Origin: Mytilus edulis
Lineage: Eukaryota
Direction of reading: 5' to 3'
Length of the DNA: 64,000 nucleotides
Assembly: GCF_963676685.1 (NCBI RefSeq)
Contig: NC_092355.1
Coordinates: 25,792,001 to 25,856,000 of the forward strand
The translations under genes were made by a program, and so were the position numbers. The stretch's first letter is position 1, and each line of letters begins with the position of its first letter. A model generated the notes under the pieces. That model saw only the letters and a program-made list of their open reading frames with translations, was not told the origin of the DNA and searched no databases. Positions 1,759-34,000 of the stretch are shown piece after piece.

Positions 1759-4700
1759 ATGACTCTAAATATTTTGATTTATCTGTGTCTTTGGGTTACT
1801 GTCGCATTAATGTATACCTTTATCTCTTTTTATTCAAAACCGAATGATTCACTTGGGTATAGAAATATTGACATCTCTGGACCTCTCCCGTCCCTCAGTA
1901 TACACTTGCTAAATGGGTGCGTTCGTTTGGCTTATCGGATATATAAATACGAAGCTTTGTCCGATCCAAATATAATAGGAATGTATATCCGATGCCTGGT
2001 GTAGTGAGAATTTTACGCCATCTATAACTTAAAAAAAAACATTAGAGGGAAAGATGATCTACGCACGAGTTGAATGATTTAAATGTGTAAACAACAAGAA
2101 AGGTCAGCTAAATCTTTTCAAATAAGTCGCATGGTTGATTTTAACAACATTTTTGTGACTTTTGCTAGGACAGTAGTAGATGAAAAATATAACAAAACCG
2201 ATCAGCAAGACACTATCAAAAAATTAAACGCCCAAAATAAGTTGAATCCTTTTATCAATTGTTGTCAACATTTTTTTATCAATTTTTTTGATGTTATTAC
2301 AACTATTATATACCATTCTGAGATATAAATAAACTTGAGACAACAAATGTTGTCACCTAGACGAGACAGCCGTCATTGTACGCTTCAATATATGATTTAT
2401 TGCCACTCAATGAAGATTGTTTTTTTCAGTTCTAATCCCCTCTCCTATTAGTTTTGCTGGAAAGGATACAATGTAACCCCTGATGTGTACTACGACAATG
2501 TTTTAATGTTTAATAAACAGATTAAATGCAGAGAGAAAAATGAGTGAAGAAATGCTAAGGTTTACGCTTAAAAATTTTAAATGTAAATAAAAATGAAATA
2601 TATAAAAAATGGAAAACTGACTGAGACAAATATCAACTGAAGACATCACTAAATGAAGCTGATTAATTTAATTTTAACAAGGCAGAGCGTTTGCTAGAGG
2701 TAAAACGTATGCCGTAATAGAATATATTAGAACCATGATGATCGAAATTCGTAAGTTAAGCTATTAGCCATCTTTCTCTCTTTTTCTCCACGATACACGA
2801 ATGCCATAAACAAAATGTCATGAATTTTAAATCAATAACGGCCACTAAAAGTAAATGAGATATGGACTTTTTTTATAAATAAATTCCTATTGCAGCCAAC
2901 ATCTCCCGGTTCGGGACAGGTCATTATTTTCACAAAATACCGTTTGATTATCGATCGGAGATATTTAAGCAACCAAAAGCACTTTGAATCAAAAAAATTC
3001 TTAAATTGTAAATTATGGTATTTTGCTTGGTGTTTTTTCCCGATCCTATTTCGGACCCCCTGATTTTAAGAGGGTTATCTAATAAGTCATGCCTGATTAA
3101 CTTTATGTAAATTGAACCTCAACTTGAAGACACTGGGAAAATACGTTCGAGGTACAATAAGTAGACAAAAGAAATCCTTTGTGAAATGAGATCGTCCCAG
3201 GTATCTTAGATAATTATTTTGCCTTGAATAACAATGAAAAATGCACGAGCAGGTTTGTTAGAACTTGTAAACGGTCGATATCCCTACCCCTAAAACATAT
3301 AAATTCATGCATTGGACAATATAACGAATCAAATAAAATATAGGGGCCATCATTTGGGTCACCCCACCCCTCCTGTTTGAGAACTTGCAAACGGTCGAGG
3401 TCCCTGCCCTAAACCACATATAGTATATGGGACAATATCGCTTTATCATGTTTATCTACACCAAAAAAATAGAAATATCAATGAAAATGTTATCAGAAAT
3501 ATTCATTGAAACTTATAGTACTACTTTCATTTACATATAGGTGTTCTTTTGTATATCTACTTTTTCGTGTAGATATATTTTGCCTTTTTATTTGCAAAAG
3601 ACATTCTAAATTTGCTGATGTAATTAAAAAACCGATCATTAAGTGACAAAGTATTAACAGCAGAGAAAAGATGTTACACGTTCGAAAAATATTTGCGTAG
3701 TCAGCTAATTAAACAACATATGCCACTAATCGTTGTTGCACACCTTGCAGAATATTTCATCAATTTCTTTAATTCAACTTGATATATCAGTAGGCAATTC
3801 ATTTTATAAGTAATCTTTCTATCTACAGGTCTTCTATTACACCTCGTGGTAAGTTTTGAAATATTTTCTTAGATACGAAGTTTTTGTGAATACAACAGTA
3901 TTTTCGAACATCGAAACAATGGTGACATTGCTTCGCAAAACTATCATTTTAAAGTCAACGTAGCGTAGTAAAGAAGACGCAACCGCTGTTTCGGAGATTG
4001 CAGTATTTTATCAAATAATGTTTAGCTCATGTTCTTTGCCGAGGGCTTTTGAAAATCACAACAAAGCTTTAATGCAATATTTCTTTTCTGTTATATATGC
4101 ATTATTAAAATAGAAAGAAGTCTACTGTTATGTTTTTTGAAAATCAGTCTCAATTTGCTGAAAATCCCGGGATCCCTTTATGTACTTGTATTGCGCAGGA
4201 AGAGATCACTGAAGTTTATGAAAGTAGTTTCGGAAACATGGTTTATCGAAGTGTAAACCAAGGGGAAAATGCAATTTACGTATTTAAAGATATGCAAATC
4301 ATATAAGAATTATTGATTTATAATATCGTCATATAATTTCCATTAACAAATTTAAATATGGTCAGTTTGAATGGATGAAGTCCTATATTCGATTATAAAC
4401 AAACCATCATGAAATAAGAAAGTATTTTTCGCGATAGTGCAGTACATCGAAAATAGAAAGAAACACTGATTCTCTTACTTCTAAGTTGAAATTTGTTTTC
4501 GGATTTGTGATACCGCTATTTCCCTGTCATACTCATGTGTAAATATTGTCAGCTTTGGTTTATGTGTTTTTTTATACAAACTGTGAAATCTACTAATAAT
4601 TTATTTCTGTGAAGTGTTCCGAGTAAAAAAAGGTAAAATTGCTTGTACAATTAATTGATACATTCAATGTTCTTGATTTTTTTACACAGATAGGGCTGTA

Positions 4701-12204: not shown

Positions 12205-12358
12205 GCGGATGTGGTCGAGTGGTCTAGAGCGCTGGACATGAGGCTAAGCGATTGGTGCTGTAGTGTATCAAAGGTGTGAGTTCGAATCCCGCTGAGGGAC
12301 GGACAAAAATTTGTCAGTAGAAAATCTAACTCTAACACTGTTTGGTGTAATTTTCAGA

Positions 12359-12360: not shown

Positions 12361-12420
<60 letters not shown>
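12361..12420. repeat. (TA)30 microsatellite
   Basis: Direct read of the sequence. Confidence 0.98.
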
Positions 12421-12424
<4 letters not shown>

Positions 12425-12685
12425 TCTAAAGATTTACACAACGGTACTGATATAAGATGTTATAATACGAAATTGTTGTAATTAAATCGTGCTGACAAAT
12501 ATTTCGGCTCAACAAATGGCCTTCTTCAAGTGTCACAAGTTTTAACAATACTCAGTATTGTTAAAACTTGTGACACTTGAAGAAGGCCATTTGTTGAGCC
12601 GAAATATTTGTCAGCACGATTTAATTACAACATTTTCGTATTATAACATCTTATATCAGTACCGTTGTGCAAATCTTTAGACTGA
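12421..12685. repeat. 265-bp near-perfect palindrome with a hammerhead-like motif in each arm
   Basis: 132-bp arms centred on 12553, 2 mismatches seen, no indels. TGACA-CTTGAAGA-AGGC..GCC-GAAA-TATT-TGTCA at 12571-12613. Confidence 0.9.
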
Positions 12686-12754
12686 TATAATTTTTTCGTT
12701 ATCTGCATAGTATCGCCTATTCTAGACGATCCGGTACATAGTAAATTTGCTGGT

Positions 12755-14789: not shown

Positions 14790-15245
14790 CTATCATTTAA
14801 TAACCCATATTTCTGCCAAAAATAACATCTCATATATCCCAGTGAATTTGAAATTAAGGATTCTACTGACACTAGAAGGACTGCTTCATACCTTGATTTT
14901 CTCCTCAATATTGACACAGATGAACGACTTCATACGAAAATCTATGATGAGCAGGACGATTTCAACTTCCCGATTATCAAATTCCCATTTCTCAGCAGGA
15001 ACACACCCTCTACCCCTTTGTATGGTGTTTGCATATCTCAGTTTATAGGTTATGCTCGTGCATGTTCACACTATACGGACTTCATATACAAAAGTGTGCT
15101 TCTAACACAGAAACTGCTGCAACAAAGTTACGAGGAGGACAGACTAAAAATATCACTTCGTAATTTTATGGACACAATCACGAATATGTTGATCTATACG
15201 ATGTGTTGTTGTCCAAACTAATTAAGGACATTTTTACCACGTGTT
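14790..15245 (+). mobile_element. Penelope-like RT C-terminal fragment (5'-truncated)
   Basis: IYPSEFEIKDSTDT..TASYLDFLLNID...LHTKIYDEQDDFNFPIIKFPFLS.N.P..PLYGVCISQFIGYARACSHY.DF...LLTQKLLQQ. Confidence 0.75.
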
Positions 15246-18542: not shown

Positions 18543-19018
18543 GCTTGGTTGTGTTTTGACATTTACTTCGAAGATAGTTTTTTTTTTAAATCAGAATTGA
18601 CCGACTGTGGATTTTTTTTTAAACACGGTTTTAAATGATAAATAATAAACTCGACTGTAATATTTTTGGCATTCGACAGACTAATTGCAAACCCTGGTTA
18701 ACGATTTCTTCTTTAAACATATGAAAATTGATTTTAAAATGTCGTAATAAGGTATTAAAATAATTCGAAAGCAAAATGTACATGATGTATAAGCCGCTTC
18801 AGTGCATACTACCTTGAAAGTGTTATATGAAACAATCCGAACCCGTCAGGTTGTCCTTATTGGTAAGTTTGGACTTTAGTTTTTTTTTTCGAGCTTGAAA
18901 TAGCAATCAAAATTGATCATTAAGGAAAACAAGTGCATTGCACTTGCTTCTGGCAATTAGCTCTTTCTCAATAATCCGGAATATAGAATTAATATAGAAG
19001 AATATCAATTTCAGAATT

Positions 19019-19082
19019 ATGATGAAGTTTTGTTGTTTGATTGTAATCATCCCCTGCATAATTTATGTGACTAATGGCGGCA
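19019..19082 (+). CDS. Exon 1 (signal peptide) of the defensin-like/MAM gene
   Basis: tttcag acceptor ends at 19014, ATG at 19019, hydrophobic 21 aa, donor A|gtaagt at 19083. A probable 5'UTR exon ends at 18862 (TG|gtaagt). Confidence 0.8.
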
Positions 19083-22000
19083 GTAAGTATGTCATAACTA
19101 CATGTAGTATAGCTTGTTCGCTCTTTGATCAAAGACGAATTTTTAGAATTGCTTTTTTGACCACAAAAAAATTATGTTTCGGCATGTACAGTGCTGAGAT
19201 TTGGAGCGAGGGTCAAAACAAGGTCCACGTGCAAGATAACTTTGAACTTGGTTTACCAAGCTAAACAGAGTTAAATCAAACTAGAATTAGCGTACAAGAT
19301 TGCTTGCAACCGATAAACTGTTTACAACATTTGTTAACACAAGAGAAGAGTTTAGAAGACATTTAAAGAGGAATAAAACCTCAGGTCGAAAAGTGTTGAT
19401 GTTCAAAAGACTCACCAGAGAAATGCGTATGATCGTTGTAAATATACCAGAAACTCCTTATTGGGGATGCTGACATTGATGAATAAGATTTTTCAAGTAA
19501 ATATTAATCAATTTACGTTTAATATTCAATTCAATACATTTCACCAGAAACAAAAACAACCTGTTTAGATGCATACGTATGCACATAATAAACAATTCGA
19601 ACAAATTGGCAATGGAACTTTAACTCATAATTTGCGTGTAAGTAAGGTGTCGTGTTACAGTAGCAATTGAAGAACACGTAGGTAGATACATACATTCTGA
19701 TTTCAGCTTTAAACCCCGCCAGCGGAGATTAAAATGAGAGGTGTGGTTTTCAAGAAATCATAAATACCACAATATCATAATACATTAAATGAATGTTAAA
19801 AATCAACACTTTTCTAAAAAATATCACATTTTTATTTATGTCCTATATTTTACGTGGGTAATATTGAAAATATGATTGTGAATCATACCACATCCTCTTT
19901 TTTAGATGTATTTTTTTCCATGTTTCCCTCAAAATTCTGTGAAATACCATGTTTGATCTGATAATTAGATATACTAGAGCTTGGAGGGTATATCTCTATC
20001 TATTTGCTAGAATAACTGCCGAAATAAATTTCAGCAATTTGACGGTAATATTTAGCACTTTTCCAATAATGGAATTGTTTACATTTTATGAACTTATATC
20101 TTTAGTATTAAAACATGTATCACATCATCACTGAATAAACAAGAGCAAATGATATCATATTGTATCGATGTACTGTTCTCTTTAGTACTCACTGGACAAT
20201 GTCTGGCTTCTAATGGTAAATGTGGAACAAAAGGTCTAACGTGTGAACAAAAGTTTGGACAAGGATGGATTAATAAGGGCAGATGCTGCAACGAAAAGCC
20301 GTGTTGCGGAGAGGAGGAATCCACAGGCAAGTGTTTGAATAAAATACCATGCTGCCACGTTGCAAATAATATTGAATTGAAAAAATTGTTTTTGAAACAA
20401 TTCATAGAAAAGTGTTTCCTCCTCTTTCATAGATAGTTTGTACTTGACTTCAAAGATAGTGGCGACAAGTGCATCCGACAACAACGTCATTTTAGATCTA
20501 AAATTAACATATTTATACAAACTATATCCGATTTGAACTTTTCCCGTTGAAGACCAAACAATTCAGGTAGATTGCTTATAGTTCGACCTTGTCCTTAATG
20601 ATGTCGTCATATTGCTATTTTATTTGTTTTGACTGTAACGTTAACTGCTAATTAAGTTATCAAATATAGTAGTAGTAGAATAAATCTAGCAAAAATGATC
20701 CCTGTATCACAGAACCAACGACGGATAATCATTTCAATTTGTATATGCTTATTGGTTGGAACAGATGCAAAATTAAAAGCGACAAATATGAACAGAAACA
20801 GTTTTTATTATAGTTTTCGACATGCTACATTGTACGCATGTTGTAGTAAAATATAAATCAAAATAGACAAAAGGACACCTCTGAATTAGATGTACAGTTA
20901 ACACTGATTGATCTTATTAATACATGATTCCATCGACTTAAACAATACGATTTAATATATTTTACAGTTAAACCAGAAATAAGCCATAGCTGTGGATTTG
21001 AGACAACTGAACAATGTTTTTTCAAACAAACTAGTAATGATGATTTTGATTGGACTCGGGGATCTGTAAGTTCCTTAAACACAGTCTATTTTTAACAAAA
21101 AGTCGTACAATCCCCGACCATTTCTCCATGATGTATATTTTTAAAAAGAGAGAAAGATATCAAATGGATATTTAGACACACAAGTTCAAAGCTAACTGGT
21201 AATGCTTTCGAATTAAAACAACAATTTGATTAGTATTTTGCTATCTTTAACAACTCAAATAAGCGTTAGATAAAAAGAATAGGAGGTTGTACAATGATGC
21301 AAAAACTAGATGCCTACCCACCAAAATCTAAACTGATTGCTAAATTGTTTGTTGCTTTACGCTATCTCAGCACAAAACGGCTTAAAAACTCATTTTGATT
21401 GGTTGATTGGTTGATTGTTTATCTATGTTAATCGCCACTATCAGAACTTTAATCGATTAACAAATACCGAGTAAATGGAGAGAAAATTGGATACTCTGTA
21501 GAAAATTAATACTCATATTCAATGACGATAAAAGTGGTCTCACTTTACCGAATCTGGGTTGAACATGCAAATCTAGAATAAAAGATTTCAATGATATTAG
21601 TTACTTATAAGCAAGAGATTGACTTTACTTGACTGAGAATGGACATAACCTGTGAGCTTACGAGGTGTAATTACAAAAAAAGACCGCAATCGATCCTGAG
21701 TTAACATGGCCATAGGTTAAGGTCATTGCGACATAGTTAACAACTGTAACAGTAATAAAAACGTGGTACGGTTACTAAATTATGGTATAAAACCAATAAT
21801 GTATAGCCCCTTAGCCTTTTATGTTAAAATATGCAATTTCAAGCATTAAAGTGGCAATCATTTCATGTCAAAACCATACCTTATCCTGACTTGTGATGAA
21901 AAATTCAACATACCGTTAATTGCATATAAGAGTGTACTTGTTCCCTGATGTTTGATAGTACAAAACAGGTACACGCTATCTGAACAACAGGGTAAATGTC

Positions 22001-25000
22001 CCTTCTTATTATAGTTTTATATACGTTTTTTAATAATCAAAAGAAACTTTTAATAAGGGTTCTACAGTAATCCATAATCCCCAAGCTTTCATTTGATACC
22101 AAAAAACTATTTAAATATTTAACCTATTGACAGTGATACAACTATGTGTAGGACATATATTGTTTAGAATATGTATTACTTTGTTGTATGTTCTTTCCGA
22201 CCGGGCCTGAATTAGTGGTCTTATATCTTTTATTTGGTATACAGTTGTATAAGTCTTTTCACATTTCGTATCTATAAACCTGATATGACATAACTTCATC
22301 AGTCATGGTCTATCGATTGAGACATGCACATTGTTTTACATGTTAGTTGTGTGAATTGAATAATTTATATGCTCATGATTTAAATTTTCAAAACCAAGGG
22401 GTTTAATCCCTTGAAATAGATTTCCATTCTCAATTTTATTTCTTAATTGTATAAGGAAAACCCTTTTGGAAAAATTGGTCGTCGATGCCCTGCAATGTCG
22501 TAATTTATAAATTTTAGAGTTCATGCGTTATTGATCAATCTAGTTGACAAAATTTTAATCCTGGTATCTATGATGAGTGTATTGCAGGGTTTCCCCTGGG
22601 TCAATCATTTTTTCGCCACCTCTTTCGCCAAAACATTATATGTTTCGCCACTTTATTTTTTTTTTCGCCAAGTAACATAAATATATTTTTCTTGTAAAAT
22701 TTACCTTTTTTCTACCCCCCCCCTTTTCCTCCCTTAAATAAGTCGATTTTGCATCATTGTGATCATTCTCTCAAACTTATTTTAGAGTCTACATTTTAAT
22801 GAATAAACACATCATTTTTTTTTTAAAACAACAGATTTTTTTTTAACTTTAAAGGGAAAAATACTCATTGTTTTTTAAACAACTTTTGTAAATAAGGGGG
22901 ACTATCCTTTTAATAATAAAGAAGATACGAGTCTTGGAATATAACAAAATTAATTAACATGTTTTGATCATATGATACCAGTATAGTTCGTAGGGAAAGT
23001 TTCTTTAAAAGAAAAATACTGATGAACCCTTTTGTACTAAGAAGTGGTTTTACAACAAAACAAAAGATTTTATCACATGAAATTGATCCCTCATTTTATG
23101 TGTAGTCATTACATTGAAGGGTTACTCTCATTCGAGGGCTTGTTTCAAACCTTTTTAACATATTTCTTTATAACGACAGTTTTCTTTTCTTGACCATCGT
23201 AAATGAAAAAGATTAGACGTAAAACTATGCTTGAAACACGTGTGTCTAAAGTATATACGTAGTCTCCCTAATCAATTACCTATATAAAAGTTAAAAAAAA
23301 ATCTTACTTTTGAACATTTTTCGTCACAACAACAGCTTTCTTTTCTAAACTATCTTTAAAAGGAGAGGAGACGTAAAAAGTTTGCTTTAAACACGTGCGT
23401 CGCAAAGTGGTAAATAAATTCTGTATGTGACATTTAGCAGAAGTCATTTAACCATATCATTTTGTCAAACAATTTAATCAACACCTTTATTAATTAGTCC
23501 TTTGTTGTCGATAGCTATAAAATGCAATCAGCTGATTATTGATTTTCTGTCCAAATATTAATGAGGTTAAGGTGAATTCCGAGTATTGTCTGATCGGGTA
23601 ACGTCCGAGAAACTCGAAAAAAGTAAATAAGCAAGATGGAGTAAAATAAATCGTTATATATATTTCTTTCGCCAAATTCTTTCCCTTTCATGAATTTGAC
23701 TGTCCCTCTGGTATCTTTCGTCCCTCTTTTACAATGATTGCTAGTTTCTAAGTTGATAAGGTACACCTTCAACATGTTTTTTATGCAAATAACGCAATGA
23801 ACGTGGATAGAAATAAATATTATTTTATTGGTTTTTATGTTTAAACTGTTGTCGCTTTAGGGTTTTACCCCTACCGCTTCAACTGGTCCCACATCAGCAG
23901 CCGAGGGGAAATACTACATGTTCATAGAGGCAACTGGAAATTTTGCTATAGAACAGGCTTCTTTCACTACAGATGGTACAAACTTTCAAGGTAGGACTTT
24001 CATAATTACTGGTTATTGTTTTTCCCCAGTTATTTTGTTCATTTTACTTTATGTTCACGAAATAACAGACTACTTGAAAGTATGAAGGTTATACCCGGAT
24101 GTTAGAAGAATGTTTGGGATTGACGTCGTCGCCTCTTCTTCAGGGTGTTTTGTAAAAGTTTTTTTCTCTATTAAAATGGGTTTCGATTAATGGATTATTT
24201 GTTTATACACAAATATGCCGAAATTAATGTCTTGGTTAGAGAGAAAAAAACTCATGAAATTGTATATCAGTAATCATTAATACATAAACATCATGTAAAA
24301 AGCAACCAAGGATTCAAAAGGCTTTTTGATAAAACCAATAAGAGTACCTCACTGTATTTTAGATTAAATATATCAGAGTTGATAACACAAATAAAATATC
24401 CATTTTATCCTGCACTACCGCCCGCTTATTACCAAAGTATTTCTATTCTATAAGTTAGTATTGGACATCATTCTGTCCCGTTTGAACAGGTTATAGTCAG
24501 TAAGAGTGGTGTAAAAGATATTGAGGTTACTAGTTTACAAAGTGTATACTCATTTAAATAGACATGATATATGCTCAATGATTCAATAAAAGAAATTGAT
24601 GTCAAAGATCATAAATTGATACCCAAGAATAAAAGTATCTACAAATCTTCTTTACAAATAGTCGTTCGTGTTTTAACGATAGGCAATAAGTAGAATTTCA
24701 ACTATTGTTCGATTTTTTTTAACTGAACGTTGTAAAGTGAAATGATACAACTTGTTGGTTCTTGGAATATATTTTCAGTTTGGTTTTTATATATGTCATT
24801 CAGTATTTCGTTATCCAGTTTATAGATTGTAGGCAGACAGTAGGCAGACAGTAGGCAAAGGGTGTTTTTATATATTGGTTTTCGTATTTGATGTATTTCG
24901 ATATTATTGAATACATTTGATCAAAGTTATCACTTGGTGTAAATTAACCAAATATCAGAACTGACGAACAGACCCCATTGATGCCTGGATTCGTATTTCA

Positions 25001-28000: not shown

Positions 28001-31000
28001 TATGGTGTAATGGTATCGAAAAACCTTGCAGATAAGTAACTATTGACAAAAAAAATGCTACATTTGAGAACAATGACTGTAAAGATTTTACCTATATCTG
28101 CCGTCGCAATATTGGGATTGTCGTAGTTCCAGTGACGGTTATCAGTTTAATATCAGTGATTACGAAACGTTATAATTTCTGTGTTTGTAAATTATTTATT
28201 TGAATGGTTAAACAGAAATTGTTTAACATTTTTTAGGTTGTTATTTTGTTAATTTAGCAATATTAAATCGCTGTTTTCTGTGAATGAATTTATAAGCATT
28301 CAAAACGTTCAAACTTATAATTTTGTCGGACAAAAAACCAAAATTTTTATACGTGTGCATGTAAAAAAAACCATCTTGGTAGCGATGACTCAATACAGCA
28401 CAGACAAAATTTTCAGAAAGAGCAGAAAAGTGGAAAGTATATTTTACCAAAACGCACAGATGTTCTTAAACCCTACTGATTGCCATTTCGATTGCCAAAT
28501 AAACGGATCACCAGAATAACGAAACGTGCTTAATTATCAATTTTATACCCAACAGAAAACAATAAACACATGATAAACTTGATCAAAAAATGGTATACTG
28601 CAAACATGAGGTGCAAAACACTGGTACATCATATCCGAATTTTGACAACTAAAACCTCTTCAGAGATGTAATGAATCAAAACAGTATTTTAAAGGCCATA
28701 TAATTACTTCGGTACTGACATGATTTAACGATCATAATCTAGGTTACTTGTATTGAATTAGCTGGTTGCATTCATGGTCCTTTTTATAGACTTCGTATTT
28801 TTTATAAAAAAAAAGCTTCTGCAATTTGATTTTCAATTATACGTCAGTTACGCCAGACGTCAATTTTACAATACAACATAATTATACCTCTTCAGTAAAC
28901 ATGGTAAATTTCTGAAAGAAGAACACAACATATATATTTAATTTCAAATCGAACTAGTAGCTAATGCCACTTTAAAACTATCTGCCGATGGGAAATTACC
29001 TTTGAGATGAACGAATAAGTAATCAAAATAGGCACGTGAATAATATTGCATTCTTCACATCTTAATTTCATGTCTCATTGATGTCGTTTCAATATATTGA
29101 TCATTTACTGATTTTTTCCAGCCTGTCCTTGGTGTCTGTCCTTCCAGTACCATATGAACGGAAAAGATACAGGAATTTTGAGAGTATTTGCAGGAGATAA
29201 AACATCTTCTTTGAGTAGGATATGGATTAAAAGTGGACAGCAACTTAATCCTACCTCTTGGAAAACTGCTACCATAAATATCCCACAATATAGTAATCTT
29301 CGTGTATGTATACTACGACTCATTTATAAACAATGTATGAAAAATAAGAGTTTAGAATGTACTTACGTGAGGTTTTGGAAATTGTGTCAAATATTCAGAC
29401 TCCTTGGTTTTTTTTCATACAATGCAATGTAAAACATTTTACCCTTTCCCAGCAATTTATCTTTTTATGTAGACTTAATAGGCCATAAAGGGTCATTTGC
29501 TTAAATTTAAGTAGATTTTAGATTTTTTTCTATGGATTGAGACCAAAATAATACCAATGTAACATAAGATAAAAGTCCGAGCTAGCTTTTTCCCGCCATT
29601 TATAAAAATAGTTATCTCGAAAGGAGCTCCATGACCTATGGATATTTTAGCTTAGTTTATTCCTTAACTAACGTTATTCTGACTTAAGGTATCAATTTTA
29701 AATTCTTGATTTTTGAATTCCACAAACCCTCACTTTAGTACATCCTTTAGCAGAAATTGCTATCAAAGTGTGTCATATTGCCGTTTAAATGTAAAAAACA
29801 CCCATTATATGGAAAAACGGAAAAGTGGTATCTATATATGATTGATAATCAGAAAAGTATCCATGACATGGATAAATATCACAAACACAAACATGAATGC
29901 CAAATTGAAATGACACAACGTCACTGAACTAAATCGAACATTCATAATGGTTTCCTTTGATCTGTTTGTTGTATTAATGTCGTAAGTATTCTGTTACCTA
30001 CGTGACTAAAGAAACTGCAATTGTAGACTTTCAACAATTCATTATCCATGTTGCAAGTATGCGTAACTTAAAATATCACTCTTTAAATCATCCTGAAAGT
30101 ATTATGTTACTTGACATACCACTCTTTAGTTATCATCCTGTAAGTATTGTGTAATTTGACACAGCAGCACTTTAGTTATCATCCTGTAAGTTTTGTGTAA
30201 CTTGACATACCAATCTTTCAATATCATGCTATAAGTATTGTTTAACTTGACATACCACACTTAAGTTATCATCCTGTAAGTATTGTGCAACTTGACATAC
30301 CACTCTTTAGTTATCATTCTGTAAGTATTGTGTAACTTGACATATCAGACTTAAGTTATCATCCTGTTACTATTGTGTAATTTGACATACCATACTTTAG
30401 TTATCATCTTGTAAGTATTGTGCAACTTGACATAACACCCTTAAATATTATCTTGTAAGTATTGTGTAACTTGACATACCACACTTTAGTAATCATCTTG
30501 TTACTATTGTGTACCTTGACATACTACACTTTATTTATCAACCTGTAAGTATTGTGTAACTTTACATACCACACTTTAGTTATTATCTTGTAAGTATTGT
30601 GTAACTTGACATACCACACTTTAGTTATCATCCTGTTACTATTGTGAAACTTGACATACAACACTTTATTAATCAAGTATTAAGTATTGTGTAACTTGAC
30701 CTACCACTTTGATCTGTTTCTTATATTAATGTTGTAATTATTGTGTTACTAACGTGACTAAAAACTGCTATAGTAGACTTTCAACAATTCATTAACCATG
30801 TTGCAAGTATTGTGTAGCTTAACATATCACTCTTTAAATCATCCTGTAAGTATTGTGTAACTTGAAGAACCACACTTAAGTTATCATCCTGTAAGTATTG
30901 TGCAACTTGACATACCACACTTTTGTTATTATCTTGTAATTATTGTGTAACTTGACATACCACACTTTAGTTATCATCTTGTAAGTATTGTGTAACATGA

Positions 31001-34000
31001 CATACCACACTTTAGTTATTATCTAGTAAGTATTGTGTACTTGACATACCACACTTTAGTTAGCATACTGTTACTATTGTGTAACTTAACACACCACACT
31101 TTAGTTAGCATCCTGTAAGTATTGTGTAACTTGACATACCACACTTTAGTTTTTATCCTGTTTCTATTGTGTAACTTGACATATCACACTTTACTTATCA
31201 TCATGTTTCTATTGTGTAACTTGACATACCACACTTTAGTTATCATCCTGTTTCTATTGTGTAACTTGACATACCAAATTTTAGTTATCATCCTGTAAGT
31301 ATTGTGGAACTTGAAATACCACACTTTAGTTATCATCCAGTAAGTATTGTGTACATTTACATACCAAACTTTAGTTATCATCTTGTAAATATTGTGTAAC
31401 TTGACATACCACACTTTACATGCTTTAGTTATCATCTTGTAAGTATTGTGTATTTTGACATACCACACTTTAGTTATCATCCTGTTACTATTGTGTAACT
31501 TAACATACCGCACTTTAGTTAGCATCCTGTAAGTATTGTGTAACTGAACATACCACACTTTAGTTTTCATCCTGTTTTTATTGTGTAACTTGACATACCA
31601 CACTTAAGTTGTCATCCTGTTTCTATTGTGTAAATTGTCATACCACACTTTAGTTTTCATACTGTTTTATTGTGTAACTTGACATACCACACTCTAGTTA
31701 TCATCCTGTTTCTATTGTATAAATTGACATACCGGACTTCAGTTATCATCCTGTTTCTATTGTGTAACTTGACATACCAACTTTAGTTATCATCCTGTAA
31801 GTATTGTGTAACTTGACATACTACACTTTAGTTATCATCTTGTAATTATTGTGTAACTTGACATACCACACTTTACATGCTTTAGTTATCATCTTGTAAG
31901 AATTGTGTAACTTGCCATACCACACTTTATTAATAGTCGTGTCCATTACCAATCCCAGCAAAACATATTAATACCTTTGTCAATAAGTGAATTATATATT
32001 GCTTCCTGTACAGACTTTTTTGTAAAATGTATTGCGTTAACTATACATTTATTTTGTAGTTATTTTCATCGTAGCCTGATTTGACCTTTCTTATGTAAAA
32101 TAATTACTGGTAGAAAGGTGTGTGTCTGTTATAAGCTGAGGTTATAAGATTATAATGATGTGTGGTAATCAAGTAGTGCCCTAAAAATAACACTACATTT
32201 GATATGTTACCAGAGCAAGAACTAATCAAATTGTAATTACATAGTATTTATAATGATACAAGGCTAGGGTACCTGATGAGGATTTACGGCCTTGGTCAAA
32301 AATGACCTAAATGATATCTGAAACACCAGGTGCAGCTTAATCATTTTTACATCACTGGAAATCGAAGACGTCTACTTGATTACCACACATAATCTTATAA
32401 CCTCAGCTTAAAACAGACACACACCTTTCTACCAGTTATTATTTTACATAAGAAAGGTCAAATCAGGCTACGATGAAAATAACTACAAAATAAAGGTATA
32501 GTTTACGCAATACATTTTTTCAAAAAAGTCTGTACAGGAAGCAATATATAATTCACTTATTGACAAAGGTATTAATATGTTTTGCTGGGATTGGTAATGG
32601 ACACGACTATTAATAAATATTATCTGGTACATGTAAGTATTGTGTACTTGACATACCTCACTTTAGTTATCATCCTGTAAGTATTGTGTACTTGACATAC
32701 CACACTTTAGTTATCATCCTATAAGTATTGTGTAACTGGATATACCACACTTTAGGTATCATCCTGTAAGTATTGTGTAAATTGACATACCACACTTTAG
32801 TTATCATCCTGAAAGTATTGTGTAACTTGACATACCACACTTTAGTTTTCATGTTGTAACCATTGTGTAACTTGACATACAACACTGTTGTTATCAACCT
32901 GTACGTTTTGTGTGACTTGATATACCACACTTTATGTAACATCCTGGTAGTATTGTGTAACTTGACATATCACACTTAGTTATCACTTTGTAAGTATTAT
33001 GTAACTTGATATATCCCAATTAAATTATTAATAAGTAATTATTGTGTATCCATGAAGAACCTGTTGACCGATATTTAAAAAAATGTTTCACAGATATGTT
33101 CACTGCATTTACTTTTTCTTGTTCCATGCTTTCTTTCATTGTGATATCACTAAAACTATTCACTGTATGTACTAATTATTGTAACTTGATATCTCAATTC
33201 ACTAAAAGATATTGGTATATATTGTTAATTCTTTTAAACAAAACAAACAAGATCAAGATCACGTATGAATTACAGCCATATAGAAAATAAATTAAATATT
33301 ATGGTAATTTTTTCTCAATGTAAAAAAAATAAAATTACAATTAACAATACATCAAAAAAAAAGTTTTTATTTAAAACGTAAAAGTGAAAAAAAAGTACCA
33401 ACGTATTTAATACAGTTTGTGTCAGTGTATTGCATTACCATTCACAAATGTTTTTTTTTGTTACAGATCATCATAAACGCGACTCGTGGTTACGGTGGTT
33501 CGTTGAGTGACATTGCTATTGATGATATCATTCTCAAATCTGGTACATGTACTGGTAAGTTTTACTTTATTATTGTCGTTATCATGAATATTCATGAGGA
33601 ATTTTCCTTTTAATGTTAAGCTTAAAATAATGGATCAATGTTTCCATTACCATTAATTAAAGAGAAGGAACTATGGTTACATGATGTTGCTTGGTTTTTT
33701 TTCAAATATTAAAAAAAAAAAAAAAAAAACCCGATCTAAACTCAAAATGGGAATAAAACCGACAACCATCCAAAGAAGTAGTATACTGAATGGAAAAATG
33801 TCTGCATGTTTTGCATTTAAAATTAATCGACCATTTCGTACTATATTCATTTTGCATTGGAAACTTTGATATATGTCTCAAGAGATTAATCGAAAACAAT
33901 CGATTTAAAATGTTTAATACTTCAAAATTGTCATGGGAGAAATAAGCTGATACAAAATTATATATAAACAAGATAAAAAATATTTATTTACAATCGTTGA

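What the first reader, a model, noticed from the sequence alone, without database searches (positions are those of the whole stretch)
20278..20436. GC-AG donor whose read-through encodes a second copy of the defensin C-terminal motif (possible MAM-less isoform)
Seen: the only phase-compatible donor I found is CAG|GCAAGT at 20326/20327. The frame stays open for 36 more codons and begins GKCLNKIPCC, echoing GRCCNEKPCC 16 residues upstream, then runs into a hydrophobic/basic tail (KKLFLKQFIEKCFLLFHR*). Inference: intron retention would give a 104-aa secreted Cys-rich peptide without MAM, so the weak donor could switch between a free peptide and the fusion. Alternatively it is the remnant of an ancestral second Cys module cut off by a new GC donor.
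Basis: partly seen in the sequence, partly recalled or inferred. Interest (0 to 1): 0.7.

Follow-up and report, generated by a model that had tools for sequence, protein, structure and literature searches.

The report
Splice donor recruited from duplicated relic
In a mussel defensin-like/MAM gene the unusual GC splice site is real and is used, and the cysteine 'echo' behind it is a decayed duplicate of the exon's end that also sits inside the introns of related genes, so it is likely an evolutionary leftover rather than a second, MAM-less protein.

Summary
CAG|GCAAGT at 20326/20327 is a GC-AG donor of a 641-nt intron, joined to the first MAM exon in RNA-type contigs of three studies; a fourth study's contigs end there and continue into that exon. 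The GKCLNKIPCC echo is not chance (0 of 20,000 null draws). The isoform reading is poorly supported. The 36-codon frame is open in 1 of 6 close copies: four stop after 18 codons, and one gene with all coding exons frameshifts after 4 residues. The echo is a decayed tandem copy of exon end, donor and intron start that lies 54-76 nt inside the intron of GT-donor paralogs, cut off there by stops or frameshifts. This subfamily likely lost the ancestral GT donor with about 55 nt and recruited the G|GC of the relic's glycine codon: intron sliding on a duplicated proto-splice site. Against me: three substitutions among frame-intact copies are all synonymous (p about 0.04), and contigs drop rare isoforms. 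More interesting in passing: the beta-defensin-like exon has 118 matches in this genome and heads MAM, C-type lectin, Sushi and fibrinogen proteins.

The parts
3829..3848 (+). 5' UTR mini-exon (20 nt, AG..GT flanks)
   Evidence: loose end of an X2 contig before 19014 found here
19015..19082 (+). signal-peptide exon, ATG at 19019, phase-1 GT donor
   Evidence: joint 19082-20186 in X24 reads and X2/X4/X10 contigs
20186..20326 (+). Cys-rich exon, 7 Cys, predicted beta-defensin-like fold, ending in acidic linker GEEEST
20278..20307 (+). GRCCNEKPCC, the coding original of the echo
20308..20326 (+). 19 nt that replace the ancestral AAAT|GTAAGT donor and about 70 nt of intron; likely partly exonized intron
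   Evidence: alignment; origin inferred
20327..20967 (+). GC-AG intron, 641 nt
   Evidence: 641-nt joint in contigs of X2, X4, X10; X1 contigs end at 20326 and go on with 20968
20322..20437 (+). stretch colinear with intron sequence of GT-donor paralogs; holds the decayed copy of exon end and dead donor
20326..20355 (+). GKCLNKIPCC echo (relic codons); its Gly codon G|GC supplies the donor
20380..20436 (+). tail of the read-through, open only in this copy (AAA at 20380-20382 where the five other copies have TAA)
20968..21065 (+). MAM exon 1
23861..23990 (+). MAM exon 2
   Evidence: loose ends of X2/X4 contigs at 21066; model P0013
29122..29303 (+). MAM exon 3
   Evidence: Pfam MAM E 3.6e-07; P0013
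33467..33554 (+). MAM exon 4
   Evidence: P0013
35385..35392 (+). last coding bases and TGA stop
   Evidence: P0013 ends in TDP

Best explanation
The GC donor is spliced to the MAM exon, and the echo behind it is a decayed tandem copy of the exon's end that likely became the donor after a deletion removed the ancestral GT site and is likely not translated. Steps. Shown: most family members end this exon at PCC-K-T|GTAAGT; one group of them carries, 54-76 nt into the intron, a copy of the last about 34 exon nt, the donor (decayed to GAAATT or TAAATT) and the intron start. Shown: the window's donor and read-through align with that intronic copy, now 18 nt behind PCC. Inferred: a short duplication across the exon-intron junction made the copy; it was intronic from birth and decayed; in this subfamily a deletion of about 55 nt took out the GT donor; the AG|GC of the copied glycine codon, a proto-splice site in the same phase, took over and left the linker GEEEST. 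Inferred: the frame match is inherited from that history, and the 36-codon length comes from a recent loss of a TAA in this one copy. The product is the 236-aa secreted defensin-like/MAM protein.
For: 641-nt joint in contigs of X2, X4, X10 (three studies), continuing in X2 and X4 into this gene's exon at 23861; three X1 contigs end at 20326 and continue with 20968. RefSeq model P0013 matches my gene model; 11 of 18 fetched subfamily proteins read ..ST/SK-V.., the GC splice, in M. edulis, M. galloprovincialis and a third record set. Close copies: TAA after 18 codons in L002-L005, 2-nt deletion and stop after 4 residues in L006, which has signal, Cys and four MAM exons. Window 20322-20437 aligns with L009 intron (score 66; best of 53 distant loci; p 0.01, the floor of 100 shuffles). 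An exon-end matrix trained without the six close copies scores the window relic 19.7 bits, L009 intron 19.2, L059 9.9, L019 0.0 (each p 0.005). L009 intron matches L011 exon end plus donor at 38 of 47 nt. In 15 of 15 GT-donor paralogs examined for it, the relic lies behind a stop or in another frame. Only the six close copies of 60 loci have the GC donor; at least 29 have GT at +4.
Against: Among the frame-intact copies the three substitutions in the 17 codons after the donor are all synonymous; 18 of 51 transitions there would be, so p = 0.044 (0.005 if all changes are weighted alike); adding L006's non-synonymous change gives 3 of 4, about 0.13 by hand. The first 56 intron nt vary less than the rest (5 of 56 against 77 of 509 columns; not significant by hand estimate). 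The window copy keeps PCC better than L009 or L059. RNA evidence is contigs, which drop rare variants, at depth 9-16; raw reads were too few. The exon-end matrix found the relic at p <= 0.005 in only 3 of 53 distant loci; the rest need gapped alignment. The exon tree is open at its base, so polarity rests on counts and decay, not on a rooted test.
Confidence: 0.85

Rival explanations
1. A regulated MAM-less isoform: intron retention with intronic polyadenylation gives a secreted peptide, 104 aa here and 86 aa (10 Cys after the signal peptide) in four sister copies.
For: 18 codons open in 5 of 6 close copies with 3 of 3 substitutions synonymous; AATAAA at 20679 behind the stop; one 151-nt intronic contig at depth 2 in X1; human GC-AG introns are enriched for alternative 5' sites and polyadenylation (PMC7242645, passages); read-through unchanged in DNA-like run X15.
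Against: Contigs of three studies join across the intron; frame broken in the otherwise complete gene L006; tail private to one copy; relic non-coding in 15 of 15 GT-donor paralogs; the copies are about 93% identical, so a kept frame is expected; full retention would leave four downstream junctions and likely trigger NMD (own knowledge); the only database proteins with the read-through (P0009, P0010) start inside the upstream intron, i.e. gene calls on unspliced DNA.
Confidence: 0.06
2. The ancestor of this subfamily translated a longer exon with a second, partial Cys module, which a later GC donor cut off.
For: The relic is in frame here and retains G-C-N-P-C-C; four of the six shared residues use different synonymous codons.
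Against: The copy includes the donor and intron start, lacks Cys 1-3, and had already lost the second Cys of CC in L009, L059, L019 and L046 as well; no fetched protein codes it as a spliced exon. The copy's own donor is dead in the aligned carriers.
Confidence: 0.06
3. The echo is a chance resemblance in AT-rich intron.
For: G and K are forced by the donor letters; many junctions are scanned genome-wide.
Against: 0 of 20,000 null draws; 19.7 bits on an independent matrix; homologous copy in paralog introns.
Confidence: 0.02

Closest known systems
Near intron pairs: intron sliding and intron gain by tandem duplication of a proto-splice site (PMC2891723; abstract and section 10 read)
   Same: Old and new donor positions lie 15 nt apart in the coding frame; the new site is an AG/GY proto-splice site inside duplicated sequence.
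   Different: Here the duplication spans an existing exon-intron junction, no intron is gained, the new donor is GC, a deletion is needed, and the footprint is still visible in paralogs.
GC-AG U2-type introns (PMC7242645, passages)
   Same: GC at +1/+2, AG end, otherwise full consensus.
   Different: No alternative use seen in the RNA runs laid here; that paper covers human and mouse.
[quoted passage not shown]
   Same: Small secreted Cys-rich module in its own exon; model matches beta-defensin structures weakly; profile hits a defensin-like peptide at E 0.017.
   Different: Seven Cys, not six; no Pfam match in 41 of 41 members; fused N-terminally to MAM or lectin-type domains.
Double beta-defensins such as avian AvBD11 (PDB 6qeu, listed)
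   Same: A second Cys motif would follow the first.
   Different: The read-through holds only a C-terminal fragment, without Cys 1-3, and is spliced out.

Membership tests
GC-AG intron | GC donor and AG acceptor used in spliced RNA | tested here: met
   641-nt joint, 4 letters of slack, fits 20327 GC..AG 20967; loose ends
GC-AG intron | Strong consensus at the other donor positions | tested here: met
   CAG|GCAAGT, best of 15 phase-1 sites
Functional retained-intron / intronic poly(A) isoform | Transcripts that read through the donor | tested here: inconclusive
   Contigs join across the intron; contigs drop rare forms; raw reads too few
Functional retained-intron / intronic poly(A) isoform | 104-aa read-through frame conserved in relatives | tested here: not met
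   Open in 1 of 6 close copies
Functional retained-intron / intronic poly(A) isoform | Purifying selection on the first 18 codons | tested here: inconclusive
   3 of 3 synonymous among frame-intact copies, p 0.044; frameshift in L006
Functional retained-intron / intronic poly(A) isoform | Peptide detected | not testable with these tools
   No proteomics tool
Intron sliding on a duplicated proto-splice site | Old and new intron positions under 32 nt apart | tested here: met
   GT at +4 after PCC in at least 29 of 60 loci, GC at +19 in 6
Intron sliding on a duplicated proto-splice site | New site lies in recognisably duplicated sequence with AG/GY | tested here: met
Intron sliding on a duplicated proto-splice site | New position is derived (rooted polarity) | tested here: inconclusive
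   Tree of 56 exons is open at the base; polarity from counts and decay
Beta-defensin | Beta-defensin fold | tested here: inconclusive
   Model pLDDT 87.8; best Foldseek E 0.19, top 10 all beta-defensins; best Z 4.4, rmsd 1.4, 33 aligned
Beta-defensin | Six-cysteine array | tested here: not met
   Seven invariant Cys in 41 members
Beta-defensin | Pairing 1-5, 2-4, 3-6 and host-defence activity | not testable with these tools
   Pairing as given in PMC7203481; the model output lists no disulfides
Double beta-defensin | Second complete Cys domain | tested here: not met
   Read-through has 4 Cys and no counterpart of Cys 1-3

The most novel reading that the evidence does not exclude
After the deletion brought the dead duplicate into frame, the subfamily co-opted it: retention plus intronic polyadenylation makes a free secreted 86-104 aa peptide with extra cysteines alongside the MAM fusion, switched at the GC donor. 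This would be a new defence-peptide isoform born from an intronic relic.
Probability: 0.06. Interest if true: 0.65.

Novelty: new member of a known kind. Interest (0 to 1): 0.27.

Why it matters
As it stands, it is a clean, traceable case of a GC donor arising from a duplicated proto-splice site, with the steps still readable in paralogs; it also explains why 7 public models of this subfamily are mis-spliced or read through. It is a caution that an in-frame motif echo behind a donor can be a duplication footprint. If the isoform were real it would give mussels a switch between a free defensin-like peptide and a MAM fusion. The broader lead is the mobile beta-defensin-like exon itself, which heads several lectin-type families in Mytilus and which I did not find described in the searches run.

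Tried and rejected
One search listed no holder on record as RNA; 14 runs are guessed RNA, and I laid 4 of them (X1, X2, X4, X10), 3 of 4 raw-read runs (X21, X22, X24) and X15. X21 and X22 had no reads on the exons; X24 had 13 reads on the stretch, with only the first coding intron reaching the listing threshold. X1 shows depth 0 in 20363-20439 against 144-356 on the exon bins; as a part without cover in contigs this is only a hint. X15 held 76% of the words but covers introns continuously, so it is DNA-like and no sign of retention. P0009/P0010 (104 aa by coincidence) carry the read-through but begin in the upstream intron and lack the signal peptide; rejected as isoform evidence. My first idea, that ATACCATGC matches the start of paralog introns, was replaced by the longer colinear match further downstream. 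Metagenome scans: no relative by protein (106 candidates, none confirmed); 13 of 13 pattern hits had unrelated flanks. ESM Atlas gave no usable hit. Earlier-findings look-ups were empty. The donor tally puts 16 loci under 'other', some through my pattern catching an earlier GT, so 29 is a lower bound; one locus had no motif. I examined 60 of the 118 own-genome matches. P0038 and P0039 look unrelated and were dropped. Orthologous introns of other mussel species could not be fetched. Paper searches listed no paper on this gene or junction; subscription journals are not covered and no supplements were read, which may bear on the claim about the module.

Full report
Gene. The window holds a secreted protein gene on the + strand: a 5' UTR mini-exon (3829-3848), a signal exon (19015-19082), a Cys-rich exon (20186-20326), four MAM exons and a short last exon. 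The spliced product matches the named model P0013, Mytilus edulis XP_071144191.1, 236 aa, Pfam MAM at 77-234.

Observation. The donor, the 36-codon frame and the echo are as described. The echo shares 6 of 10 residues and 19 of 30 nt with GRCCNEKPCC; 0 of 20,000 null draws reach its score. The GC site is the best of 15 phase-1 GT/GC sites; a poor GT at 20333 is also in phase and is used by 5 of the 8 models. A 36-codon open frame occurs at 9.4% of positions in this window.

RNA. Contigs of X2, X4 and X10, three studies, join across a 641-nt gap that fits GC..AG, and X2 and X4 go on into this gene's exon at 23861. In X1, three contigs end at 20326 and continue with the 20968 exon; by their differences they stand for the window copy and two sister types. 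These runs are labelled RNA by guess, but the joins across introns show spliced RNA. Contigs drop rare forms, depth is 9-16, raw reads were too few, and tissue and treatment are unknown, so low or induced retention is not excluded.

Close copies. The genome has six copies of this intron type. All keep the GC donor. Four stop at TAA after 18 codons and carry a further 1-nt indel in the tail; L006 has a 2-nt deletion right behind the donor and stops after 4 residues, although it has a signal exon, the Cys exon and four MAM exons. The tail KKLFLKQFIEKCFLLFHR is therefore private to the window copy, by loss of a stop. Against my reading, the three substitutions among frame-intact copies within 17 codons are all synonymous (p = 0.044 for transitions), and the first 56 intron nt vary at 5 columns against 77 of 509 further on. 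This is a weak, post hoc hint and is the reason I keep the isoform at 6%.

Origin of the echo. I examined 60 of 118 own-genome matches to the exon. At least 29 end it with a GT donor 4 nt behind PCC; only the six close copies use GC, at +19. The window's 20322-20437 aligns colinearly with intron sequence 70-171 nt behind PCC in L009 and, more weakly, in L008, L012-L015. A matrix of exon ends trained without the close copies scores the window relic 19.7 bits and finds the same element in the introns of L009 (19.2), L059 (9.9) and L019 (0.0), each above 200 of 200 shuffles; it misses the indel-bearing copies. The L009 element matches the exon end, donor and intron start of L011 at 38 of 47 nt, with GTAAGT decayed to GAAATT. 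The multiple alignment shows the element in the chromosome-7-type group and in L046, and in 15 of 15 such genes it lies behind a stop or out of frame. So the duplicate covered the junction and was non-coding there.

Mechanism. Inferred order: junction-spanning tandem duplication; decay of the second copy and its donor; in this subfamily a deletion of about 55 nt that removed the first GT donor; use of AG|GC in the copied glycine codon, which is phase 1 like the old donor and keeps MAM in frame. The exon tree separates the six copies from the relic-bearing GT group but is open at its base, so the order rests on counts and decay. Named models of other mussels also read the GC splice (P0004, P0011, P0012, P0057 from M. 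galloprovincialis; P0027, P0043), so the switch is not private to this genome. Full retention would place a stop before four junctions, a likely NMD target (own knowledge); a stable short form would need the AATAAA at 20679, since the one at 20338 precedes the stop.

The defensin label. A model from 41 members has pLDDT 87.8; its best matches are beta-defensins, weakly (E 0.19; Z 4.4, rmsd 1.4, 33 aligned). It has seven invariant Cys and no Pfam match: it resembles a beta-defensin in fold but fails the six-Cys test.

Known kinds. The case fits intron sliding on a duplicated proto-splice site (PMC2891723, abstract and section 10). PMC7203481 (passages), PMC5549309 (passages) and PMC10140915 (passages; no occurrence of 'defensin' or 'MAM') did not describe this gene or module in what I saw; other papers were seen as search listings only.

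Verdict. Real donor, real echo, most likely a duplication relic and an ordinary single product. Interest 0.27; the mobile exon family deserves its own look.

Noticed in passing
window 20186-20326; G000 118 matches; P0015-P0037: The phase-1 Cys exon is a mobile N-terminal module with a predicted beta-defensin-like fold. Relatives fuse it to MAM, C-type lectin, Sushi plus C-type lectin, Sushi alone and fibrinogen C; all named sources seen are Mytilus. Not found described in my paper searches.
   Followed up: partly
window 20333: Five public models use this weak GT and insert GKF at the junction; RNA contigs support the GC site instead.
   Followed up: yes
L008, L012-L014, L031 (+16); L020, L044 (+22); L055 (+7); L019: The donor behind this exon has moved several times in the family; in L019 an insertion lies between the exon end and the relic.
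   Followed up: partly
P0013: Seven Cys in the module plus five in the MAM part make twelve; the odd Cys may pair across domains (speculation).
   Followed up: no
window 20669-20819: One 151-nt intronic contig at depth 2 in X1; pre-mRNA, retention or DNA cannot be told apart.
   Followed up: partly
window about 30080-33000: Long tandem array with a unit of about 40 nt inside an intron, interrupted by an inverted pair at about 31930-32160 and 32380-32620 (read by eye).
   Followed up: no
window about 12420-12690: Near-perfect palindrome with arms of about 135 nt beside a TA microsatellite (read by eye).
   Followed up: no
window about 12205-12280: tRNA-like head with A and B box look, possibly a SINE (recalled resemblance).
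   Followed up: no
window 14826-15221: 131-aa open frame that looks like a decayed reverse-transcriptase element fragment (recalled resemblance).
   Followed up: no
G000:C7:23777556-23787806: A single open frame of 3519 aa holding many tandem MAM-like repeats without introns.
   Followed up: no
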